The notes beneath the pieces are model-generated. The model did not search any database. It saw nothing but the letters and a program-made list of their open reading frames with translations, and had not been told where the DNA came from. A DNA stretch of 13,536 nt. Origin: a virus. Taxonomy: Duplodnaviria > Heunggongvirae > Uroviricota > Caudoviricetes. The stretch lies in IMG/VR virus record IMGVR_UViG_2695420540_000003; one strand, written 5' to 3'. The translations under genes were made by a program, and so were the position numbers. This document shows, piece after piece, positions 2,737 through 12,697 of this stretch. Position 1 is the first letter of the stretch, and every line of letters starts with the position of its first letter.

Positions 2737-5290
2737 TCTTGTTATTGACCTGAGTCTGGATGCTGTCCGTTTCGATGAGCAGATGAGCCGGGTAAGGCGT
2801 CATTTTTCAGGTCTGGATACCGACGCCAGAAAAACCGCCAGTGCTGTTGAACAGGGCCTGAGCCGCCAGGCGCTGGCTGCACAAAAAGCCGGGATTTCCG
2901 TCGGGCAGTATAAAGCGGCCATGCGAACCCTGCCCGCACAGTTTACGGATATCGCCACGCAGCTTGCCGGTGGTCAGAATCCCTGGCTGATCCTGCTGCA
3001 ACAGGGCGGTCAGGTGAAGGACTCCTTCGGCGGGATGATCCCCATGTTCAGGGGGCTTGCCGATGCGATCACCCTGCCGATGGTCGGGGTCACCTCGCTG
3101 GCGGTGGCGACAGGTGCACTGGTGTACGCCTGGTACCAGGGAGATTCCACGCTTTCAGCGTTTAATAAAACCCTGGTTCTTTCCGGTAATCAGTCCGGAC
3201 TGACTGCCGATCGTATGCTGACTCTCTCAAGAGCCGGGCAGGCAGCAGGGCTGACGTTTAACCAGGCGAGAGAGTCACTGGCAGCCCTGGTGAATGCCGG
3301 TGTGCGTGGTGGTGAACAGTTTGATGCCATCAACCAGAGTGTCGCGCGTTTTGCGTCTGCATCCGGTGTGGAGGTGGATAAAGTCGCTGAAGCCTTCGGG
3401 AAGCTGACCACTGACCCGACGTCGGGACTGATGGCGATGGCGCGCCAGTTCCGTAACGTGACGGCAGAGCAGATTGCGTATGTTGCACAGCTGCAGCGTT
3501 CCGGAGACGAGGCCGGGGCATTGCAGGCGGCGAACGATATCGCCACGAAAGGCTTTGATGAGCAGACCCGTCGCCTGAAAGAAAACATGGGAACACTGGA
3601 GACCTGGGCGGATAAAACAGGGAAGGCATTCAAATCGATGTGGGATGCCATTCTGGATATCGGTCGTCCGGAATCCTCAGCGGATATGCTCGCCAGTGCG
3701 CAGAAGGCATTTGATGAGGCGGATAAAAAATGGCAGTGGTACCAGAGTCGGAGCCAGCGCCGCGGTAAAACCTCCTCTTTCCGGGCCAACCTTCAGGGCG
3801 CATGGGATGACCGGGAAAATGCCCGTCTGGGTCTGGCAGCGGCAACGCTGCAGTCGGATATGGAAAAAGCCGGTGAACTGGCGGCAAGGGACAGGGCTGA
3901 GCGTGAGTCGTCACAGCTGAAGTATACCGGAGAGGCGCAGAAGGCGTATGAGCGCCTGCTGACGCCACTGGAGAAATATACCGCCCGGCAGGAAGAGCTG
4001 AATAAGGCCCTGAAAGACGGGAAAATCCTGCAGGCGGATTACAACACGCTGATGGCGTCGGCAAAAAAGGATTATGAGTCGACGCAGAAAAAGCCGTCCG
4101 GTGTGAAGGTGTCTGCCGGTGAGCGCCAGGAAGACCAGGCGCATGCAGCCCTGCTGGCGCTTGAAACTGAGCTCAGGACGCTGGAGAAGCACAGCGGTGC
4201 GAATGAAAAAATCAGCCAGCAGCGCCGTGATTTATGGAAAGCGGAAAATCAGTATGTGGTCCTGAAAGAGGCCGCCACGAAACGGCAGTTATCTGAGCAG
4301 GAAAAATCCCTGCTGGCCCATGAGAAAGAAACGCTGGAGTACAAACGCCAGCTGGCTGAGCTGGGCGACAAGATTGAACACCAGAAACGGCTGAATGAGC
4401 TGGCACAGCAGGCGGCGCGGTTTGAACAGCAGCAGAGCGCGAAGCAGGCGGCAATCAGCGCAAAAGCCCGCGGACTCACCGACCGTCAGGCGCAGCGGGA
4501 GTCGGAAGAGCAGCGCCTTCGTGAGGTGTACGGTGATAATCCGGCTGCGCTGGCGAAGGCCACATCTGCACTGAAGAACACCTGGTCTGCGGAGGAGCAG
4601 CTTCGTGGAAGCTGGATGGCCGGGATGAAGTCCGGCTGGGGCGAGTGGGCGGAAAGTGCGACGGACAGTTTTTCGCAGGTTAAAAACGCGGCCACGCAGA
4701 CCTTTGACGGTATTGCACAGAATATGGCAGCGATGCTGATCGGCAGCGAACAGAACTGGCGTGGTTTCACCCGTTCTGTGCTGTCCATGCTGACAGAGAT
4801 TTTTCTGAAGCAGGCGATGGTGGGGATAGTCGGGAGTATCGGCAGCGCCATTGGCGGTGCTTTCGGTGGTGGTGCGTCTGCCTCCACGGGGACGGCCATT
4901 CAGGCTGCGGCGGCGAACTTCCATTTCGCGACCGGGGGATTTACGGGGACGGGGGGTAAATATGAACCTGCGGGGATTGTTCATCGCGGGGAGTTTGTCT
5001 TCACGAAGGAGGCGACCAGCCGGATTGGTGTCGGCAATCTGTACCGCCTGATGCGGGGCTATGCGGAAGGTGGTTATGTCGGCGGTGCCGGAAGTCCGGC
5101 GCAGATGCGGCGGGCGGAAGGCATTAATTTTAATCAGAACAATCACGTGGTGATTCAGAACGACGGCCCCAACGGGCGGGCAGGGCCGCAGCTGATGAAA
5201 GCGGTGTATGAGATGGCCCGCAAGGGGGCACAGGATGAACTCCGGCTGCAGTTGCGTGATGGCGGTATGTTATCAGGGAGCGGTGGATGA
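2717..5290 (+). CDS. H: tail tape measure protein H
   Basis: 857-aa ORF (lambda gpH is 853 aa). N-terminus, central coiled-coil-like region and the Gly-rich C-terminus (GGAFGGGASAS..., FHFATGGFTGTGGKYEPAGIVHRGEFVFTKEATSRIGVGNLYRLMRGYA) match recalled lambda gpH. 'ggagg' SD upstream; the stop overlaps the M start (ATGA at 5287-5290). Confidence 0.93.
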   Translation: MSQPVGDLVIDLSLDAVRFDEQMSRVRRHFSGLDTDARKTASAVEQGLSRQALAAQKAGISVGQYKAAMRTLPAQFTDIATQLAGGQNPWLILLQQGGQVKDSFGGMIPMFRGLADAITLPMVGVTSLAVATGALVYAWYQGDSTLSAFNKTLVLSGNQSGLTADRMLTLSRAGQAAGLTFNQARESLAALVNAGVRGGEQFDAINQSVARFASASGVEVDKVAEAFGKLTTDPTSGLMAMARQFRNVTAEQIAYVAQLQRSGDEAGALQAANDIATKGFDEQTRRLKENMGTLETWADKTGKAFKSMWDAILDIGRPESSADMLASAQKAFDEADKKWQWYQSRSQRRGKTSSFRANLQGAWDDRENARLGLAAATLQSDMEKAGELAARDRAERESSQLKYTGEAQKAYERLLTPLEKYTARQEELNKALKDGKILQADYNTLMASAKKDYESTQKKPSGVKVSAGERQEDQAHAALLALETELRTLEKHSGANEKISQQRRDLWKAENQYVVLKEAATKRQLSEQEKSLLAHEKETLEYKRQLAELGDKIEHQKRLNELAQQAARFEQQQSAKQAAISAKARGLTDRQAQRESEEQRLREVYGDNPAALAKATSALKNTWSAEEQLRGSWMAGMKSGWGEWAESATDSFSQVKNAATQTFDGIAQNMAAMLIGSEQNWRGFTRSVLSMLTEIFLKQAMVGIVGSIGSAIGGAFGGGASASTGTAIQAAAANFHFATGGFTGTGGKYEPAGIVHRGEFVFTKEATSRIGVGNLYRLMRGYAEGGYVGGAGSPAQMRRAEGINFNQNNHVVIQNDGPNGRAGPQLMKAVYEMARKGAQDELRLQLRDGGMLSGSGG

Positions 5291-5616
5291 AAACCTTTCG
5301 CTGGAAAGTGAAGCCGGATATGGAGGTGAACTCGCAGCCATCGGTGCGTGAAGTGCGTTTTGGTGACGGGTACTCACAGCGTATGGCGGCAGGGCTGAAT
5401 GCTGACCTGAAAACATACAGGGTGACGCTTTCCGTGACCCGGGAGGAGGCCCGGCATCTGGAAGCGTTCCTGGCAGAGCACGGTGGCTGGAAGGCATTTT
5501 TGTGGAAGCCACCCTATGCATACCGGCAGATAAAGGTGACCTGTGCCGGGTGGTCTGCGCGGGTCGGGATGTTGCGCGTTGAGTTCAGCGCGGAGTTTAA
5601 GCAGGTGGTGAACTGA
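5287..5616 (+). CDS. M: tail tip protein M
   Basis: 109-aa ORF, the same length as lambda gpM, in the conserved position between H and L. Start overlaps the H stop, and its stop overlaps the L start (TGATG at 5614-5618). Confidence 0.88.
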   Translation: MKTFRWKVKPDMEVNSQPSVREVRFGDGYSQRMAAGLNADLKTYRVTLSVTREEARHLEAFLAEHGGWKAFLWKPPYAYRQIKVTCAGWSARVGMLRVEFSAEFKQVVN

Positions 5617-6314
5617 TGCAGGATATTCGCGAAGAAAGTCTGAACGAGTCGGTTAAGTCAGAGCAGTCACCGCGGGTGGTACTCTGGGAAATCGACCTGA
5701 CGGTACAGGGTGGTGAGCGGTATTTTTTCTGTAATGAGCTGAATGAAAAAGGGGAGCCGGTCACCTGGCAGGGGCGTAAGTATGAGGCATACCCGATTGA
5801 CGGCAGCGGCTTTGAGATGAACGGCCGGGGCAGCAGTGCCAGACCGTCGCTGACGGTGTCCAATCTGTTCGGTCTGGTCACCGGGATGGCGGAAGACCTG
5901 CAGAGTCTGGTGGGGGCCACGGTGGTCCGCCGCCGGGTGTATGCCCGTTTTCTGGATGCGGTGAATTTCGTTGCGGGCAATCCGGAGGCGGACCCGGAGC
6001 AGGAGCTGAGTGACCGCTGGGTGGTGGAGCAGATGTCGCAGCTGACAGCCATGACGGCCTCGTTTGTGCTGGCTACACCGACCGAGACGGACGGGGCGCT
6101 GTTTCCCGGTCGCATCATGCTGGCGAACACCTGTATGTGGGATTACCGGGGAGATGAATGCGGGTATAACGGTCCTGCGGTGGCGGATGAGTTCGACAAC
6201 CCCACCACGGATATCCGTAAGGACAGATGCAGCAAGTGCATGCGCGGGTGTGAACTGCGCAGGAATGTCGGCAATTTTGGCGGTTTCCTTTCCATTAATA
6301 AACTTTCGCAGTAA
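5616..6314 (+). CDS. L: tail tip protein L, with C-terminal Cys cluster
   Basis: 232-aa ORF, the same length as lambda gpL, in the conserved position. The C-terminal region carries clustered cysteines (..NTCMWDYRGDECGYNG..DRCSKCMRGCE..). Confidence 0.88.
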   Translation: MQDIREESLNESVKSEQSPRVVLWEIDLTVQGGERYFFCNELNEKGEPVTWQGRKYEAYPIDGSGFEMNGRGSSARPSLTVSNLFGLVTGMAEDLQSLVGATVVRRRVYARFLDAVNFVAGNPEADPEQELSDRWVVEQMSQLTAMTASFVLATPTETDGALFPGRIMLANTCMWDYRGDECGYNGPAVADEFDNPTTDIRKDRCSKCMRGCELRRNVGNFGGFLSINKLSQ

Positions 6315-6324
6315 ATCCCGGTTT

Positions 6325-7068
6325 ATGACACAGACTGAATCAGCGATTCTGGCACATGCCCGGCGGTGTGCGCCTGCGGAGTCGTGCGGCTTCGTGATAA
6401 GCACGCCGGAGGGGGAGCGGTATATCCCTTGTGTGAATATTTCCGCAGAGCCGGAGGCGTATTTTCGTATCGCACCGGAAGACTGGCTGCGGGCAGAGAT
6501 GCAGGGGGAGATTGTGGCACTGGTCCACAGTCATCCCGGTGGGCTGCCCTGGCTGAGCGAGGCTGACCGGCGGTTGCAGATAAAAAGCGCACTGCCCTGG
6601 TGGTTGGTCTGCCGGGGTGACATTCACAAATTCCGCTGTGTGCCACATCTGACAGGACGGCGCTTTGAGCACGGGGTGACGGACTGTTACACGCTGTTCC
6701 GGGATGCTTATCATCTGGCGGGGACTGAAATGCCGGATTTTCATCGCGAGGATGACTGGTGGCGCAACGGTCAGAACCTTTACCTGGACAATATGGCGGT
6801 CACCGGCTTTTACCGGGTGCCCCTGTCCTCTGCACAGGCGGGCGATATTCTGCTGTGCTGCTTTGGTGCTTCGGTACCGAACCATGCCGCCATTTACTGC
6901 GGCAACGGTGAGCTGCTTCACCATCTGCCTGAACAACTGAGTAAACGGGAGAGGTATTCCGAAAAATGGCAACGACGAACGCATTCAGTCTGGCGTCACC
7001 GCCACTGGCACGCATCTGCCTTCACGGGGATTTACAACGATTTGGCCGCCGCCTCAGCCTGTATGTGA
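6325..7068 (+). CDS. K: tail tip assembly protein K (MPN/JAMM-like plus NlpC/P60-like domains)
   Basis: Frame is open from 6064 but overlaps L until 6314. The first ATG after the L stop is 6325 (MTQTESAILAHARRCAPAESCGF...), matching the lambda K region. JAMM-like motif HSHPGGLPWLSEAD at 6526-6567; NlpC/P60-like Cys in VTDCYTLF at 6685-6687. An alternative internal start at 6499 is possible. Its 3' end overlaps I by 103 nt. Confidence 0.85.
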   Translation: MTQTESAILAHARRCAPAESCGFVISTPEGERYIPCVNISAEPEAYFRIAPEDWLRAEMQGEIVALVHSHPGGLPWLSEADRRLQIKSALPWWLVCRGDIHKFRCVPHLTGRRFEHGVTDCYTLFRDAYHLAGTEMPDFHREDDWWRNGQNLYLDNMAVTGFYRVPLSSAQAGDILLCCFGASVPNHAAIYCGNGELLHHLPEQLSKRERYSEKWQRRTHSVWRHRHWHASAFTGIYNDLAAASACM

Positions 7069-7646
7069 ACACGGCAGCGGAAGCCATTCGCGCCCTGTCG
7101 ATGCAGATGCCGGGCTTTCGCCGTCAGATGAACGAAGGCTGGTACCAGATACGTATTGCCGGTTATGACACGGCACCGGAGGCGGTGTACGCCCGTCTTC
7201 ACGAACAGCTGGGTGAGGGAACGGTCATCCACATTGTGCCGCGACTGGCCGGGGCCGGAAAGGGTGGACTGCAGATTGTGCTGGGGGCGGCAGCCATCGT
7301 GGGCTCTTTCTTCACTGCCGGGGCATCAATGGCGTTATGGGGTTCAGCCCTGGCAGCCGGTGGTTTTTCTGCCACCACGATGCTGTTTTCACTTGGAGCC
7401 AGCATGATTCTGGGCGGTGTGGCCCAGATGCTGGCCCCGAAGGCAAAAACACCGGATTACCGCGCAACGGATAACGGCAGACAGAACACGTACTTTTCCT
7501 CACTGGATAACATGATTGCCCAGGGGAACCCGATGCCGGTGCCTTACGGGGAAATGCTGGTTGGCTCCCGCCGTATATCCCAGGACATCAGCACCCGTGA
7601 TGAAGGCGGGGGCGGAAAGGTCGTGGTTATCGGGCGGCAGGGGTAA
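6966..7646 (+). CDS. I: tail tip assembly protein I
   Basis: 226-aa ORF (lambda gpI is ~223 aa). ...SPPLARICLHGDLQRFGRRLSLYVNTAAEAIRAL... and the Gly/Ala-rich hydrophobic middle and ...NTYFSSLDNM.AQGN..PV.YGEM.VGSR... C-terminus match recalled lambda gpI. It begins inside K in another frame, as in lambda. Confidence 0.9.
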   Translation: MATTNAFSLASPPLARICLHGDLQRFGRRLSLYVNTAAEAIRALSMQMPGFRRQMNEGWYQIRIAGYDTAPEAVYARLHEQLGEGTVIHIVPRLAGAGKGGLQIVLGAAAIVGSFFTAGASMALWGSALAAGGFSATTMLFSLGASMILGGVAQMLAPKAKTPDYRATDNGRQNTYFSSLDNMIAQGNPMPVPYGEMLVGSRRISQDISTRDEGGGGKVVVIGRQG

Positions 7647-7650
7647 AAAG

Positions 7651-7691
7651 AATAAAAAAATCCCGCAGTGATCGCGGACAGGAACTGCGGG
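7651..7691 (-). terminator. putative rho-independent terminator, active on the minus strand
   Basis: Inverted repeat CCCGCAGT (7662-7669) / ACTGCGGG (7684-7691) with a 14-nt loop. On the minus strand the stem is followed directly by TTTTTTTATT (complement of 7651-7660). On the + strand it is not followed by a T-run. Confidence 0.5.
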
Positions 7692-7750
7692 AGAGTTACG
7701 AAGATTAAGTGTAAGGAATTATTCTTATATCACGACAAAAAAATTAACGC
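7653..7750 (-). ncRNA. candidate ~95-nt small RNA (moron) between I and J; hypothetical
   Basis: Region bounded by the minus-strand promoter and minus-strand terminator. It is AU-rich, has no ORF longer than a few codons, and ends in a stem-loop plus U-run (typical sRNA architecture). No expression data or homology search are available. Confidence 0.3.
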
Positions 7751-7756
7751 AGAGAA

Positions 7757-7784
7757 ATTATACGCGCCACAGTCAGTTTGTGAA
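7757..7784 (-). promoter_or_regulatory. putative sigma70 promoter on the minus strand (-35 TTCACA, 16-nt spacer, -10 TATAAT)
   Basis: Minus-strand sequence reads TTCACA-aactgactgtggcgcg-TATAAT (complement of 7784-7757). The -10 is a perfect consensus and the -35 matches 5 of 6. Predicted TSS is near 7750, reading leftward toward the terminator at 7651-7691. Confidence 0.45.
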
Positions 7785-7850
7785 AATGTGAAGATATTCA
7801 GAATTTTTATGCCATTACCGGTTTTAACCAACAGGATTATCGGTGGGCAT

Positions 7851-7892
7851 GAAAGAAAACCCCGGTATCTGCTGATACCGGGGTTTCTCTTT
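7851..7892. terminator. putative bidirectional intrinsic terminator hairpin upstream of J
   Basis: Perfect 9-bp GC-rich stem CCCCGGTAT (7860-7868) / ATACCGGGG (7875-7883) with a 6-nt loop. It is flanked by gaaagaaaa on the left and tttctcttt on the right, so either strand has a stem followed by a U-rich tract. Confidence 0.5.
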
Positions 7893-9616
7893 AGCATGGC
7901 AGAAATGTGTTTCATGCTTTTCGGGCGAAGGATATCCGACTTCTGTACGGAATGGCAAGTGGCGGTTAATTTATTCAGGGGAAGGCTGTATGGGAAAAGG
8001 TGGCGGTAAGGCACACACGCCTCGTGAGGCGAAGGATAATCTCAAATCCACGCAGATGATGAGCGTGATTGATGCGATTGGTGAGGGACTGATAGAAGGT
8101 CCGGTGAAGGGACTGCAGAGTATCCTGGTGAACAAAACCCCGCTGACGGACACGGACGGTAATCCCGTGATACACGGTGTGACGGCGGTCTGACGCGCCG
8201 GGGAGCAGGAGCAGACACCACCGGAAGGCTTTGAGTCCTCCGGTGCTGAAACCGGACTGGGCGTGGAAGTGACGAAGGCAAAACCGGTGACGCGCACCAT
8301 TACGTCCGCGAACATTGACCGCCTGCGGGTTACCTTCGGGGTGCAGTCACTGGTGCAGACCACGTCAAAGGGTGACCGAAACCCGACATCCGTCCGCCTG
8401 CTGATTCAGTTACAGCGTAACGGTAACTGGGTGACAGAAAAGGATGTCACCATTAACGGCAAGACCACCTCGCAGTTTCTGGCGTCGGTGATTCTGGATA
8501 ATCTGCCTCCCCGTCCTTTTAACATCCGGATGGTCCGGGAGACAGCGGACAGCACCACGGACCAGCTGCAGAATAAGACGCTGTGGTCGTCATACACCGA
8601 AATCATCGATGTGAAACAGTGCTACCCGAACACGGCCATTGTGGGGCTGCAGGTGGATGCGGAGCAGTTCGGCGGCCAGCAGATGACGGTGAACTACCAT
8701 ATCCGCGGTCGCATCATCCAGGTGCCGTCAAACTATGACCCGGAAAAACGCACGTACAGTGGTATCTGGGACGGCAGCCTGAAACCGGCATACAGCAACA
8801 ATCCGGCCTGGTGTCTGTGGGACATGCTGACTCACCCGCGCTACGGCATGGGAAAACGTCTGGGGGCGGCGGATGTGGACAAGTGGGCGCTGTATGCCAT
8901 CGGGCAGTACTGCGACCAGACGGTCCCGGATAGTTTCGGGGAGACCGAGCCGCGGATGACCTTCAATGCGTACCTGGCACAACAGCGTAAGGCATGGGAC
9001 GTGCTCAGTGATTTCTGCTCGGCGATGCGCTGTATGCCGGTATGGAACGGCCAGACGCTGACGTTTGTTCAGGACCGCCCGTCGGATGTGGTGTGGCCGT
9101 ACACCAACAGCGATGTGGTGGTGGATGATAACGGCGTGGGTTTCCGCTACAGCTTCAGTGCCCTGAAGGACCGGCACACGGCGGTGGAGGTGAATTATAC
9201 CGACCCGCAGAACGGCTGGCAGACCTCCACGGAACTGGTGGAAGACCCGGAAGCCATACTGCGCTACGGACGCAACCTGCTGAAGATGGACGCGTTCGGC
9301 TGTACCAGCCGCGGTCAGGCCCACCGTGCCGGACTGTGGGTGATAAAGACCGAACTGCTGGAAACGCAGACGGTGGATTTCACGCTCGGGTCTCAGGGGC
9401 TGCGGCACACACCCGGTGACATCATTGAAATCTGTGATAACGACTATGCCGGGACCCTGACCGGCGGACGTGTCCTGTCCATTGATGCTGCCACCCGCAC
9501 TCTGACGCTGGACCGTGAAGTGACACTTCCGGAGACCGGTGCCGCCACGGTGAACCTGATTAACGGCAGCGGTAAGCCGGTGAGTGTGGACATCACCGAA
9601 CACCCCGCGCCGGACC

Positions 9617-10221
<605 letters not shown>

Positions 10222-10684
10222 NGGCGTGAAGGTAAAAGTGAGCCGTGTTCCTGACGGCGTTGCCGGATACAGTGTATGGGGGCTGAAGCTGCCGATGCTG
10301 CGCCAGCGCCTGTTCCGCTGCGTGAGTATCCGTGAGAACGACGACGGCACGTATGCCATCACCGCCGTGCAGCATGTGCCGGAAAAAGAAGCCATCGTGG
10401 ATAACGGGGCGCACTTTGACGGCGACCAGAGCGGCACGGTGAATGGTGTCACGCCGCCAGCGGTGCAGCACCTGACCGCAGAAGTCACCGCAGACAGTGG
10501 GGAATATCAGGTGCTGGCGCGCTGGGACACGCCGAAGGTGGTGAAGGGCGTGAGCTTCCTGCTCCGTCTGACCGTAACAGCGGATGACGGCAGTGAGCGG
10601 CTGGTCAGCACGGCCCGGACGACGGAAACCACTTACCGCTTCACACAACTGGCGCTGGGGAACTACAGGCTGACAGTCCGGGCA

Positions 10685-11685
10685 GTAAATGCGTGGGGGC
10701 AGCAGGGCGATCCGGCGTCGGTATCGTTCCGGATTGCCGCACCGGCAGCGCTGTCGCGGATTGAGCTGACGCCGGGCTATTTTCAGATAACCGCCACGCC
10801 GCATCTTGCGGTTTATGATCCGACGGTACAGTTTGAGTTCTGGTTCTCGGAAAAGCGGATTGCGGATATCAGGCAGGTTGAAACCACAGCACGCTATCTT
10901 GGCACGGCGCTGTACTGGATAGCCGCCAGTATCAATATCAAACCGGGCCATGATTATTATTTTTACGTTCGCAGTGTGAACACCGTTGGCAAATCGGCAT
11001 TCGTGGAGGCTGTCGGTCGGGCGAGCGATGATGCGGAAGGTTACCTGGATTTTTTCAAAGGAGAGATAGGGAAAACACATCTGGCTCAGGAGCTGTGGAC
11101 GCAGATTGATAACGGTCAGCTTGCGCCGGACCTGGCTGAAATCAGGACGTCCATTACGAATGTCAGCAATGAAATCACGCAGACCGTCAATAAAAAACTG
11201 GAAGACCAGAGTGCGGAAATCCAGCAGATACAGAAAGTTCAGGTTGATACAAATAATAACCTGAACAGCATGTGGGCCGTGAAACTGCAGCAGATGAAGG
11301 ACGGACGCCTTTATATTGCGGGTATCGGAGCCGGTATTGAGAATACTCCAGCAGGTATGCAGAGTCAGGTGCTGCTGGCGGCAGACAGGATTGCGATGAT
11401 TAATCCTGCGAATGGCAACACAAAGCCGATGTTTGTTGGTCAGGGCGATCAGATATTCATGAACGACGTGTTCCTGAAACGCCTGACGGCTCCGACCATT
11501 ACCAGCGGCGGTAATCCTCCGGCATTTTCCCTGACACCGGACGGAAAACTGACCGCTAAAAATGCAGATATCAGTGGCAGTGTGAATGCGAACGCCGGGA
11601 CGCTCAACAATGTCACGGTAAATGAAAACTGTACGATTAAGGGCATGCTGGAGGCGACTCAGGTCAGAGGTGACTTCGTTAAAGC
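10685..11685 (+). repeat. 1001-nt direct repeat unit (copy B part), tandem with 11697-12697
   Basis: Runs from gtaaatgcgtgggggcagcagggcgatccggcg... to ...ggtgacttcgttaaagc. The same 1001-nt stretch recurs at 11697-12697 with scattered substitutions (e.g. TTARYL vs TSARYL, YFYVRS vs YFYIRS). The two units are separated only by the N-run. Confidence 0.85.
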
Positions 11686-11696
11686 NNNNNNNNNNN
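11686..11696. other. run of 11 N (assembly gap or scaffold join); a single N also at 10222
   Basis: Literal n characters in the sequence. Both N positions coincide exactly with restarts of the J repeat. Confidence 0.95.
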
Positions 11697-12697
11697 GTAA
11701 ATGCGTGGGGGCAGCAGGGCGATCCGGCGTCGGTATCGTTCCGGATTGCCGCACCGGCAGCACCGTCGCGGATTGAGCTGACGCCGGGCTATTTTCAGAT
11801 AACCGCCACGCCGCATCTTGCGGTTTATGATCCGACGGTACAGTTTGAGTTCTGGTTCTCGGAAAAGCGGATTGCGGATATCAGGCAGGTTGAAACCAGC
11901 GCCCGCTATCTTGGCACGGCGCTGTACTGGATAGCCGCCAGTATCAATATCAAACCGGGCCATGATTATTACTTTTATATCCGCAGTGTGAACACCGTTG
12001 GCAAATCGGCATTCGTGGAGGCTGTCGGTCGGGCGAGCGATGATGCGGAAGGTTACCTGGATTTTTTCAAAGGAGAGATAGGGAAAACACATCTGGCTCA
12101 GGAGCTGTGGACGCAGATTGATAACGGTCAGCTTGCGCCTGACCTGGCTGAAATCAGGACGTCCATTACGGATGTCAGCAATGAAATCACGCAGACCGTC
12201 AATAAGAAACTGGAAGACCAGAGTGCGGCAATTCAGCAGATACAGAAGGTTCAGGTTGATACAAATAATAACCTGAACAGCATGTGGGCTGTGAAGCTGC
12301 AGCAGATGCAGGACGGACGCCTTTATATCGCGGGTATTGGTGCCGGTATTGAGAACACCCCTGACGGCATGCAGAGTCAGGTGCTGCTGGCGGCGGACAG
12401 GATTGCGATGGTTAATCCTGCGAATGGCAACACAAAACCGATGTTTGTTGGTCAGGGCGATCAGATATTCATGAACGACGTGTTCCTGAAACGCCTGACG
12501 GCCCCCACCATTACCAGCGGTGGAAATCCATCGGCATTTTCCCTGACTCCGGACGGAAAGCTGACCGCTAAAAATGCGGATATCAGTGGCAGTGTGAATG
12601 CGAACGCCGGGACGCTCAACAATGTCACGGTAAATGAAAACTGTACGATTAAGGGCATGCTGGAGGCGACTCAGGTCAGAGGTGACTTCGTTAAAGC
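11697..12697 (+). repeat. 1001-nt direct repeat unit (copy C part), tandem with 10685-11685
   Basis: Same as the preceding unit, offset by exactly 1012 nt, estimated at roughly 97-98% identity by eye. Confidence 0.85.

What the first reader, a model, noticed from the sequence alone, without database searches (positions are those of the whole stretch)
7647..7989. AT-rich ~340-bp insert between I and J with a self-contained minus-strand promoter-to-terminator unit (candidate sRNA moron)
As I recall, lambda I and J are separated by only a few tens of bp; here the gap is 343 bp and much more AT-rich than the flanking tail genes. On the minus strand there is a near-consensus sigma70 promoter (TTCACA, 16-nt spacer, TATAAT; complement of 7784-7757). 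About 95 nt downstream is a stem-loop (7662-7691) followed by TTTTTTTATT. The enclosed sequence is AU-rich and has no credible ORF. This is the architecture of an Hfq-type small RNA transcribed antisense to the late operon, so it could be expressed in the lysogen. Prophage-encoded regulatory sRNAs are known in enterobacteria, but I cannot say from sequence alone whether this matches a described one.
Basis: partly seen in the sequence, partly recalled or inferred. Interest (0 to 1): 0.6.

Follow-up and report, generated by a model that had tools for sequence, protein, structure and literature searches.

The report
Known prophage small RNA (PasB family)
The AT-rich spacer between the phage tail genes I and J carries a small regulatory RNA gene of the already described PasB/EcOnc22 family, here as a common E. 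coli allele that has not itself been studied.

Summary
The I-J gap is 343 bp, against 60 bp in lambda, and it is AT-rich. Its minus strand has an 11/12-match sigma-70 promoter (7784..7757) and an intrinsic terminator (stem 7691..7662, seven U to 7654).

The unit is not new. It sits at the same position and on the same strand as PasB of EPEC E2348/69, an 83-nt RNA confirmed by Northern blot, destabilised without Hfq, with 37 RIL-seq interactions. It also corresponds to EcOnc22/23/24 of EHEC Sakai (about 85 nt, bound by Hfq, destabilised in delta-hfq). The window's allele is about 83-87% identical to both. It shares the promoter with PasB, and an AU-rich core and the terminator stem with both.

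The most likely function is a trans-acting, Hfq-dependent base-pairing sRNA made in the lysogen. This rests on homology; this allele has not been tested.

Two things are modestly new:
- The CFT073-type allele (megablast match in 800 of 5,426 complete E. coli genomes; 613 records at 99% or more) shares only a 25-nt exact word with PasB. The 2026 PasB census used word size 28 and could not have found it.
- The papers read here do not link PasB to EcOnc22-24.

No Rfam family exists and RefSeq does not annotate it. Interest is low to moderate.

The parts
7654..7750 (-). Predicted transcript of the PasB-family sRNA, about 97 nt: GCGUUAAUUUUUUUGUCGUGAUAUAAGAAUAAUUCCUUACACUUAAUCUUCGUAACUCUCCCGCAGUUCCUGUCCGCGAUCACUGCGGGAUUUUUUU. 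The 5' end is uncertain. Position 7750 follows from the promoter; 7735 is the position homologous to the coverage-based 5' end annotated in EPEC (83 nt).
   Evidence: Aligns with PasB of E2348/69 at 65/78 aligned positions over the 83-nt annotated RNA (83%) and at 76/90 (84%) over the 97-nt predicted transcript; aligns with EcOnc22 of Sakai at 75/86 positions (87%). RIL-seq chimeras in EPEC end at the homologous U-tract. 100% identical in 613 complete E. coli records.
7757..7784 (-). Sigma-70-type promoter: -35 TTCACA (7784..7779), 16-nt spacer, -10 TATAAT (7762..7757).
   Evidence: Promoter scan gives 11/12 matches. The -35 is invariant and the -10 is T/A/G-ATAAT in 38 distinct variants from 124 loci. 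Promoter activity was not tested.
7654..7691 (-). Intrinsic terminator and Hfq-binding 3' module: stem CCCGCAG (7691..7685) / CUGCGGG (7668..7662), 16-nt loop, then A and U7 (7660..7654). It ends 8 nt from the stop codon of I (7644-7646).
   Evidence: -15.7 kcal/mol, z = -3.6. The stem is the only helix in the RNAalifold consensus of 32 sequences. The stem arms are nearly invariant, while the loop varies from 3 to 16 nt through indels.
7700..7723 (-). Conserved single-stranded AU-rich core, AAUAAUUCCUUACACUUAAUCUUC. This is the candidate seed region. It contains an anti-Shine-Dalgarno-like UCCUU and the invariant AUCUU.
   Evidence: It is the most conserved internal block of the family alignment and is unpaired in the consensus fold. 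In EPEC PasB, perfect complements of 7-10 nt to the RIL-seq targets bfpI, ler, perB and bfpB cluster in the homologous two segments. The enrichment is weak: 22-31 of 1000 shuffles reach it.
7785..7818 (.). Nearly invariant A/T-rich block at about -35 to -70 from the sRNA start. It could be an UP element or a regulator site. Its function is unknown.
   Evidence: Invariant in 38 variants and recognisable in Sakai Sp15, where the core promoter differs. No plus-strand promoter was found.
7860..7883 (.). Second strong hairpin (CCCCGGTATC tgct GATACCGGGG), T-rich on both sides and so terminator-like in both directions. It lies in the 'long' version of the J-proximal half of the spacer.
   Evidence: Folding energy -24 kcal/mol, z = -4.8 on the plus strand and -5.9 on the minus strand. 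The long (199-nt) version occurs in 62 of 123 loci. The short version carries a different plus-strand hairpin with one compensatory pair.
6966..7646 (+). Flank: tail assembly gene I.
   Evidence: Pfam PF06805 Lambda_tail_I, E = 6e-17. Annotated as tail assembly protein in CFT073.
7990..11776 (+). Flank: tail tip gene J, here a pseudogene. There is a TGG->TGA nonsense at 8191-8193 and two later frame changes. The 3' limit is approximate.

Best explanation
The minus-strand unit at about 7750->7654 is a gene for a PasB/EcOnc22-family small RNA. This is a prophage-borne, Hfq-dependent, trans-acting base-pairing sRNA.

Proposed mechanism:
1. Host RNA polymerase with sigma-70 starts at the near-consensus promoter, independently of the late operon and antisense to it, so the RNA is made in the lysogen.
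2. Transcription ends at the hairpin and U7 tail next to the stop codon of I.
3. The hairpin, the U-tail and the upstream U/A-rich stretches bind Hfq, which stabilises the RNA.
4. The unstructured conserved core (AAUAAUUCCUUACACUUAAUCUUC) pairs with host and accessory-genome mRNAs to change their translation or stability.

Shown here: the sequence anatomy, homology, synteny and conservation. Shown elsewhere, for homologous alleles only: expression as an RNA of about 83-85 nt, dependence on Hfq, and Hfq-mediated contacts with mRNAs such as ler, bfpB, bfpI, perB, ftsZ and galE. Inferred: that this allele is expressed, which segment is the seed, what its targets are, and the direction of regulation. 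The segments flanking the core differ between alleles, so its target set probably differs from that of EPEC PasB.
For: Anatomy:
- Promoter and terminator.
- No ORF.

Identity with PasB:
- Same I-J spacer, same strand, terminator abutting the I stop.
- 83-84% identity.
- The published Northern probe AATCCCGCAGTGATCGCGGAGCT matches window 7659-7678 in its first 20 nt.

Identity with EcOnc22/23/24:
- They lie in the I-J spacers of Sakai Sp15, Sp14 and Sp11.
- Their probe maps to the homologous spot.
- 87% identity to the window allele.

Experimental facts on the homologues:
- PMC8550237: PasB confirmed by Northern blot, log2 fold change -6.8 in delta-hfq, 37 interactions, RNA2 ends at the U-tract.
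- PMC4104026: EcOnc22 about 85 nt, destabilised in delta-hfq.

Family conservation:
- 32 distinct sRNA sequences.
- Only the terminator stem is structured, and the core is conserved.

Prevalence:
- 1,394 of 5,426 complete E. coli genomes match the 97 nt.
- The unit stays intact beside a J pseudogene.
Against: - There are no expression, Hfq-binding or target data for this allele.
- The 5' end expected from the promoter gives 97 nt, but homologues were sized at 83-85 nt. Either the start lies elsewhere or the RNA is processed.
- No common target motif was reported for PasB (PMC8550237, fig. S5 as read). My complementarity test on six targets is only weakly significant, and energy-based duplex prediction was not significant.
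- The terminator stem is invariant, so there is no covariation support.
- No phenotype is known for any family member. The review PMC7873438 lists the targets of EcOnc22 as unknown.
Confidence: 0.85

Rival explanations
1. A cis-acting antisense RNA. Its real job would be to act on the late tail-operon transcript. The RNA, or convergent transcription from its promoter, would interfere with read-through from I into J, or would create an RNase III site in the I-J spacer. That would tune tail-tip protein J or hold down leaky late expression in the lysogen. This could coexist with trans regulation.
For: The RNA is perfectly complementary to the I-J intercistronic part of the late mRNA and converges on gene I. 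Its position in the tail operon is strictly conserved. Both versions of the spacer also carry a plus-strand terminator-like hairpin just before J.
Against: It overlaps neither the I nor the J coding sequence, and its 5' end lies about 240 nt upstream of the J start, so it cannot cover the J ribosome-binding site. The unit is kept intact where J is already a pseudogene. EPEC PasB forms Hfq-dependent chimeras with many unlinked mRNAs.
Confidence: 0.1
2. An sRNA sponge (anti-sRNA), like AgvB and AsxR. Its main partners would be other sRNAs rather than mRNAs.
For: Prophage sRNAs of EHEC act this way (PMC4104026). One significant PasB chimera in EPEC is with the pasA-adjacent intergenic RNA.
Against: It has no sequence or positional relation to AgvB or AsxR: no hit to Rfam RF02702 or RF02703, and it lies in the I-J spacer rather than the pR' moron site. 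Thirty of the 37 PasB interactions fall in the largest partner class of Table S5, which I read as CDS/5'UTR partners, and the seven partners I read are coding regions (bfpB, bfpI, ftsZ, galE, ler, perB, rplX).
Confidence: 0.05
3. No dedicated function. The hairpin would be only a terminator or a spacer relic, and the promoter match fortuitous, giving at most transcriptional noise.
For: AT-rich DNA produces promoter-like hexamers easily. No phenotype is known for any family member.
Against: The promoter, core and terminator are conserved together across 38 variants, while the segments between them are swapped and carry indels. Homologues are abundant, Hfq-stabilised RNAs in two pathotypes.
Confidence: 0.03
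4. A small protein gene, or a type I toxin-antitoxin pair, hidden in the spacer. One example is the 66-aa 'hypothetical protein' annotated in phage ASU11, which corresponds to window 7809-8009 on the plus strand.
For: The ASU11 and PhiR12_1 records annotate short ORFs in this spacer. Mechanical ORFs of 113 and 94 aa span it.
Against: None of these ORFs matches Pfam or PHROGs. The sRNA has no AUG. Indels of 1 and 5 nt in close relatives, and the replacement of the whole J-proximal half in half of the loci, break every frame. The strong hairpin lies inside the ORF.
Confidence: 0.02

Closest known systems
PasB (E2348CN_0006), a prophage PP6 sRNA of EPEC O127:H6 E2348/69 (Pearl Mizrahi et al. 2021, PMC8550237; survey by Zhu, Shabalina and Storz 2026, bioRxiv 10.64898/2026.05.13.724894)
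   Same: - Same locus: I-J spacer of a lambdoid prophage, antisense to the tail genes, with the terminator a few nt from the I stop.
- Same promoter: TTCACA, 16 nt, TATAAT.
- Same 5' leader (GCGUUA.U.UUUUUU), same core (..AAYUCCUU.ACNYURAUCUUC) and same terminator stem with U7.
- 83-84% identity over aligned positions.
   Different: - The window allele differs in the segments on both sides of the core: UCGUGAUAUAAGAAU against GCCCGAGUAACAAAAAC, and GUAACUCU against AUUUGUCUGUC.
- It has 5 extra nt in the terminator loop.
- The longest shared exact word is 25 nt. A word-28 blastn with PasB finds nothing in the window, and a word-11 search covers only 30% of the query. The published census (word 28, query coverage above 75%) would not have counted it.
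- The J-proximal half of the spacer is a different, 100-bp-longer cassette.
- Expression of this allele is untested.
EcOnc22 / EcOnc23 / EcOnc24, Hfq-CRAC sRNAs of EHEC O157:H7 Sakai prophages Sp15 (Stx1), Sp14 and Sp11 (Tree et al. 2014, PMC4104026; review PMC7873438)
   Same: - They lie in the I-J spacers of those prophages, antisense to the tail genes.
- 87% identical to the window allele over aligned positions, with the same core and terminator stem.
- EcOnc22 is about 85 nt on a Northern blot and is destabilised in delta-hfq.
   Different: - The core promoter region differs: no TTCACA-16-TATAAT, which is why my promoter pattern did not retrieve them.
- The spacer is of the short type.
- The papers I could read do not equate these RNAs with PasB. 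That link is my inference.
AgvB / AsxR anti-sRNAs of EHEC prophages (Rfam RF02702, RF02703)
   Same: They are prophage-encoded and Hfq-binding. A conserved 3' terminator module is combined with variable target-recognition segments, and they are expressed in the lysogen.
   Different: They are unrelated in sequence (no Rfam hit) and shorter, at 51-60 nt. They lie in the moron site downstream of pR', not in the tail operon, and act as sponges of core sRNAs.
DicF (Qin prophage sRNA)
   Same: It is a prophage sRNA acting with Hfq on host mRNAs. ftsZ, the classical DicF target (from general knowledge), is among the RIL-seq partners of EPEC PasB.
   Different: There is no sequence relation (no Rfam hit). 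DicF is processed from a longer operon transcript (from general knowledge), whereas this unit has its own promoter and terminator.

Membership tests
PasB / EcOnc22-24 prophage sRNA family | Located in the spacer between tail genes I and J of a lambdoid prophage, on the strand opposite the tail genes, with the 3' end abutting the I stop codon | tested here: met
   Window: I stop at 7644-7646 and sRNA 3' end at 7654. E2348/69: I ends at 1466255 and PasB 3' end is at 1466261. Sakai Sp15, Sp14 and Sp11 have the same layout.
PasB / EcOnc22-24 prophage sRNA family | Recognisable sequence homology to the described RNAs along the whole transcript | tested here: met
   65/78 (83%) and 76/90 (84%) to PasB; 75/86 (87%) to EcOnc22. 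Leader, core and terminator are collinear. The allele is clearly divergent: megablast with PasB gives no hit.
PasB / EcOnc22-24 prophage sRNA family | 3' intrinsic terminator hairpin followed by a U-tract (the Hfq-binding module) | tested here: met
   7-bp G+C-rich stem plus U7. It is the only conserved helix in the family consensus.
PasB / EcOnc22-24 prophage sRNA family | Own promoter, independent of the phage late promoter | tested here: met
   The sequence matches at 11/12 positions, and the promoter is conserved in 38 variants. Activity itself is not testable here.
PasB / EcOnc22-24 prophage sRNA family | Expressed as a discrete RNA of about 83-85 nt whose level depends on Hfq | not testable with these tools
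   Shown only for the E2348/69 and Sakai alleles (PMC8550237, PMC4104026).
PasB / EcOnc22-24 prophage sRNA family | Hfq-mediated pairing with trans-encoded RNAs | not testable with these tools
   RIL-seq exists only for EPEC PasB. My in-silico check of the seed on six targets was weak: 22-31 of 1000 shuffles reached the observed value.
Any Rfam family (including AgvB RF02702, AsxR RF02703, DicF, STnc310) | Covariance-model score at or above the family's gathering threshold | tested here: not met
   There are no hits at gathering thresholds in the whole window. The best sub-threshold hits in 7500-8100 are chance-level; for example, STnc310 scores 19.4 against 40 bits, and it falls on the second hairpin, not on the sRNA.
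Small protein / type I toxin gene | A conserved open reading frame with a start codon, maintained across relatives | tested here: not met
   The sRNA has no AUG. The spacer ORFs match no Pfam or PHROG family, and indels and cassette replacement break every frame.

The most novel reading that the evidence does not exclude
The I-J spacer may be a modular sRNA cassette. A fixed scaffold (promoter, U-rich leader, AUCUU-containing core, terminator) is recombined with interchangeable segments on either side of the core. Different prophage lineages would then install different regulons in their hosts.

On this reading, the CFT073-type allele in the window is a second major PasB class. It has a megablast match in 800 of 5,426 complete E. 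coli genomes, carriers noted here include CFT073, S88 and ATCC 25922, and published surveys did not capture it. It would have its own, still unknown target set, and it would be kept by selection on the host even as the surrounding tail genes decay.
Probability: 0.3. Interest if true: 0.5.

Novelty: new member of a known kind. Interest (0 to 1): 0.3.

Why it matters
It matters mainly for annotation and bookkeeping.

- An abundant, experimentally supported sRNA family is missing from RefSeq annotation and from Rfam.
- The family goes under two unconnected names, PasB and EcOnc22-24.
- The published distribution rests on a search that cannot detect the allele class found here. With the same collection and the same kind of search, the published PasB query finds 956 genomes and the window allele finds 800. 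The family may therefore be considerably more widespread than reported (overlap between the two genome sets was not checked), including in well-studied extraintestinal strains such as CFT073.
- The alleles differ in the segments that flank the putative seed. If that changes their targets, the family would be a natural example of how prophages diversify host post-transcriptional regulation.
- The general concept, a prophage-borne Hfq-dependent sRNA, is well established, so a specialist would not be surprised.

Tried and rejected
- Rfam, at gathering thresholds on the whole window and at E <= 1 on 7500-8100: no family found.
- AgvB/AsxR as the identity. This was my first recollection, and it was wrong. 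Those RNAs lie downstream of pR' and are unrelated in sequence.
- Energy-based duplex prediction (RNAduplex) of PasB or the window allele against six EPEC RIL-seq target fragments. The z-scores ran from -1.0 to +0.9 apart from one outlier, and the long looped duplexes were uninformative. I replaced it with a count of perfect complements, which gives only weak enrichment.
- Small-ORF explanations: rejected.
- A plus-strand promoter feeding the plus-strand hairpins: none found by scan or by eye.
- Search for expression evidence of this allele in UPEC. The UTI89 Hfq co-IP paper (PMC4546395) and the CFT073 Ribo-seq preprint (10.64898/2026.09.28.754932) do not mention this locus.
- Identity profile of the window against CFT073. 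The spacer is 100% identical, but so is 5000-6200. The pattern reflects mosaic recombination and cannot be read as special constraint on the spacer.
- Genome-contig scan with the promoter pattern. It found only Escherichia albertii and one contaminated 'Streptomyces' contig. The pattern is too strict to detect promoter-divergent members such as EcOnc22.
Full report
**1.

The window carries a lambda-like tail gene series. ORF 6966..7646 matches Pfam Lambda_tail_I (E = 6e-17). The ORFs from 7990 onward match gpJ domains. In E. coli CFT073, which is 100% identical to the window over 7600-8040, the tail assembly protein ends at the position of window 7646 and gpJ starts at 7990.

The gap is therefore 7647-7989, or 343 bp. 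In phage lambda, I ends at 15444 and J starts at 15505, a gap of 60 bp. G+C drops to 0.38-0.45 in the gap from 0.56-0.62 in the flanks.

On the minus strand, the scan finds TTCACA, a 16-nt spacer and TATAAT (7784..7757), which is 11 of 12 matches. It also finds a terminator. The region has 3 promoter-like sites where shuffles give 0.8 +/- 0.8.

The terminator stem is CCCGCAG/CUGCGGG (7691..7685 and 7668..7662). It is followed by A and U7, ending at 7654, 8 nt from the I stop codon. It folds at -15.7 kcal/mol with z = -3.6.

The predicted 97-nt transcript (7750->7654) has no AUG. The only ORFs across the gap are mechanical ones with no Pfam or PHROG match.

**2. What it is: homology to PasB**

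Rfam has no family for it, and RefSeq annotates nothing there. The literature does describe it.

Table S6 of Pearl Mizrahi et al. 2021 (PMC8550237) lists PasB. It is in E2348/69 prophage PP6, on the minus strand at NC_011601.1 1466343->1466261, 83 nt long, between E2348C_1436 and E2348C_1437. Its Northern probe is AATCCCGCAGTGATCGCGGAGCT.

- That interval lies between the tail assembly gene (ending at 1466255) and gpJ (starting at 1466496), antisense to both.
- The first 20 nt of the probe equal window 7659-7678.
- The two spacers align collinearly from the I stop through the terminator, the sRNA body and the promoter.
- Identity is 65/78 aligned positions over the 83 nt and 76/90 over the 97-nt predicted transcript.

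PasB was confirmed by Northern blot. It drops 6.8 log2 units in delta-hfq under the activating condition. It has 37 RIL-seq interactions and is more abundant under the non-activating condition. In chimeras its 3' end is at 1466260/61, which is the U-tract.

**3. A second published name: EcOnc22/23/24**

Table S2 of Tree et al. 2014 (PMC4104026) lists EcOnc22 (Sp15, the Stx1 phage; about 85 nt; destabilised in delta-hfq), EcOnc23 (Sp14) and EcOnc24 (Sp11) as homologues of one another.

- In NC_002695.2, these three sites are the spacers between 'phage tail assembly protein' and 'phage host specificity protein'. The RNAs are on the strand opposite these genes.
- Their shared Northern probe maps, with a few PDF-extraction errors, to the stretch homologous to PasB.
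- The three copies are identical to each other. They are 87% identical to the window allele and 80% to PasB over aligned positions.
- A 2021 review still lists the targets of EcOnc22 as unknown (PMC7873438).

Table S6 of the PasB paper gives EHEC homologues for PasA and PasD but none for PasB. The 2026 survey by Zhu et al. does not mention EcOnc at all. That EcOnc22-24 and PasB are one family is therefore my inference from sequence and synteny.

**4. Anatomy of the family**

A scan of IMG/VR with the promoter pattern, together with the other loci, gave 124 loci, 38 distinct promoter-plus-sRNA sequences and 32 distinct sRNA sequences. The window's allele is the most common, with 29 copies.

Conserved features:
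- the -35 hexamer, with a -10 of the form NATAAT;
- an A/T-rich block upstream of the promoter (7785-7818);
- the leader GCGUUARUKUUUUUU;
- a central core around AAYUCCUUMACNYURAUCUUY;
- the terminator stem and U-tract.

Variable and apparently reassorted features:
- the segment between leader and core;
- the segment between core and terminator;
- the terminator loop, which ranges from 3 to 16 nt.

RNAalifold finds only the terminator helix; the rest is predicted single-stranded. This is the usual build of an Hfq-dependent sRNA. The stem never varies, so there is no covariation evidence. Confinement of the indels to the loop is the only structural argument.

**5. How it most likely works**

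By homology, host RNA polymerase transcribes the gene in the lysogen. The terminator hairpin and U-tail bind Hfq. The unstructured core pairs with mRNAs.

[quoted passage not shown] I looked for perfect complements of at least 7 nt between EPEC PasB and six of its RIL-seq target fragments. They cluster in two core segments: ACAACUCCUUCACA (bfpI, perB, ler) and UUGAUCUUCAUUU (bfpB, bfpI, ler). The enrichment over dinucleotide shuffles is modest, with 22 to 31 of 1000 shuffles reaching the observed counts. Energy-based duplex prediction was uninformative.

In the window allele, UCCUU and AUCUUC are retained, but the neighbouring bases differ. I therefore expect an overlapping but not identical target set. 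This last step is inference only.

The 5' end is also unsettled. The promoter predicts 97-98 nt, whereas published sizes are 83 nt (from coverage) and about 85 nt (from a Northern blot).

**6. Rivals**

- A cis-antisense role on the late transcript is possible and not exclusive. But the RNA covers no coding sequence or ribosome-binding site. It is also preserved where J is dead: a TGG->TGA change at 8191-8193 plus two frame changes.
- A sponge role like that of AgvB or AsxR has little support. The sequence and location are unrelated, and the partners are mostly mRNAs.
- A protein-coding reading is rejected.
- A no-function reading does not fit the joint conservation of promoter, core and terminator, or the abundance of the homologues.

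**7. Distribution and what is new**

| Query and search | Complete E. coli genomes matched (of 5,426) |
|---|---|
| 441-nt spacer query, megablast | 1,718 |
| 97-nt window allele, blastn word 11 | 1,394 |
| 97-nt window allele, megablast | 800 (613 records at >= 99%) |
| Published 83-nt PasB, megablast | 956 (all at >= 90%) |

PasB and the window allele share at most a 25-nt exact word. A word-28 search with PasB gives no hit in the window, and a word-11 search gives a 25-nt match covering 30% of the query.

Zhu et al. used word size 28 and required query coverage above 75% within Escherichia and Shigella. They report only 'a few nucleotide differences' among PasB variants. Their PasB-2 is the C27A variant that I also see as L108-type. 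The allele class in the window thus lies outside the published census, although it is about as frequent as the published class.

In a one-genome-per-species collection, the promoter pattern occurs only in Escherichia albertii and in a contaminated contig. This fits the reported restriction to Escherichia and Shigella.

**8. Verdict**

The object belongs to a family that is already described and experimentally supported, so the finding is largely explained.

The residual novelty has three parts: the allele is uncharacterised and uncounted, the two published names can be joined, and the family shows modular variation next to its putative seed. Interest is low to moderate (0.3).

Noticed in passing
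window 7990-11776: Tail tip gene J is a pseudogene in this window. Relative to CFT073 there is a TGG->TGA nonsense at 8191-8193, and the open frame changes twice more, near 9850-9900 and near 10200. The adjacent sRNA unit is intact. No complete E. coli genome matches the whole window better than 96.6%.
   Followed up: partly
window 7860-7883 (flanks 7856-7892): There is a very stable hairpin, CCCCGGTATC-tgct-GATACCGGGG, with T-rich runs on both strands (-24 kcal/mol, z = -4.8 and -5.9), so it looks like a terminator in both directions. It belongs to the 'long' (199-nt) version of the J-proximal half of the spacer. The 'short' (96-106 nt) version in E2348/69 and Sakai carries a different plus-strand hairpin, CAGGCAYCC...GGRTGCCTG followed by TTGTTTTT, with one compensatory pair (C:G, T:A, T:G). 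It is unclear what plus-strand transcript these hairpins terminate.
   Followed up: partly
window 7929-7958 (minus strand) down to about 7857: A weak promoter-like site, TTGCCA-18-TATCCT, lies upstream of the 7860-7883 hairpin on the minus strand. It would give a second small RNA of about 70 nt, with a 5' stem (AGCAUG/CAUGCU) and a terminator. The only database echo is a sub-threshold Rfam STnc310 match (19.4 against 40 bits). There is no comparative or expression evidence.
   Followed up: no
window 7785-7818: An A/T-rich block (AAATGTGAAGATATTCAGAATTTTTATGCC) upstream of the sRNA promoter is nearly invariant in all variants. It is kept even in Sakai Sp15, where the core promoter differs. It could be an UP element or a regulator site; PasB is condition-dependent in EPEC.
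   Followed up: no
window 7809-8009 (+); L002 1709-1909: Phage ASU11 annotates a 66-aa hypothetical protein here, overlapping the J start. It has no Pfam or PHROG match, it contains the strong hairpin, and 1-nt and 5-nt indels in close relatives (L014, L126) break the frame. It is probably an annotation artefact.
   Followed up: yes
L126 (NZ_JBHTEB010000006.1, 'Streptomyces flavalbus', 3408 bp): This contig is 97.9% identical over its full length to the E. coli prophage K-I-J region, including a PasB-type unit. It is almost certainly E. coli contamination of that assembly.
   Followed up: yes
L128, L129, L130 (Sakai NC_002695.2): The EcOnc22/23/24 coordinates in Tree et al. 2014 are offset by about 147 nt from NC_002695.2, a difference between record versions. 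The three sRNA copies are identical across the 97 nt compared.
   Followed up: yes
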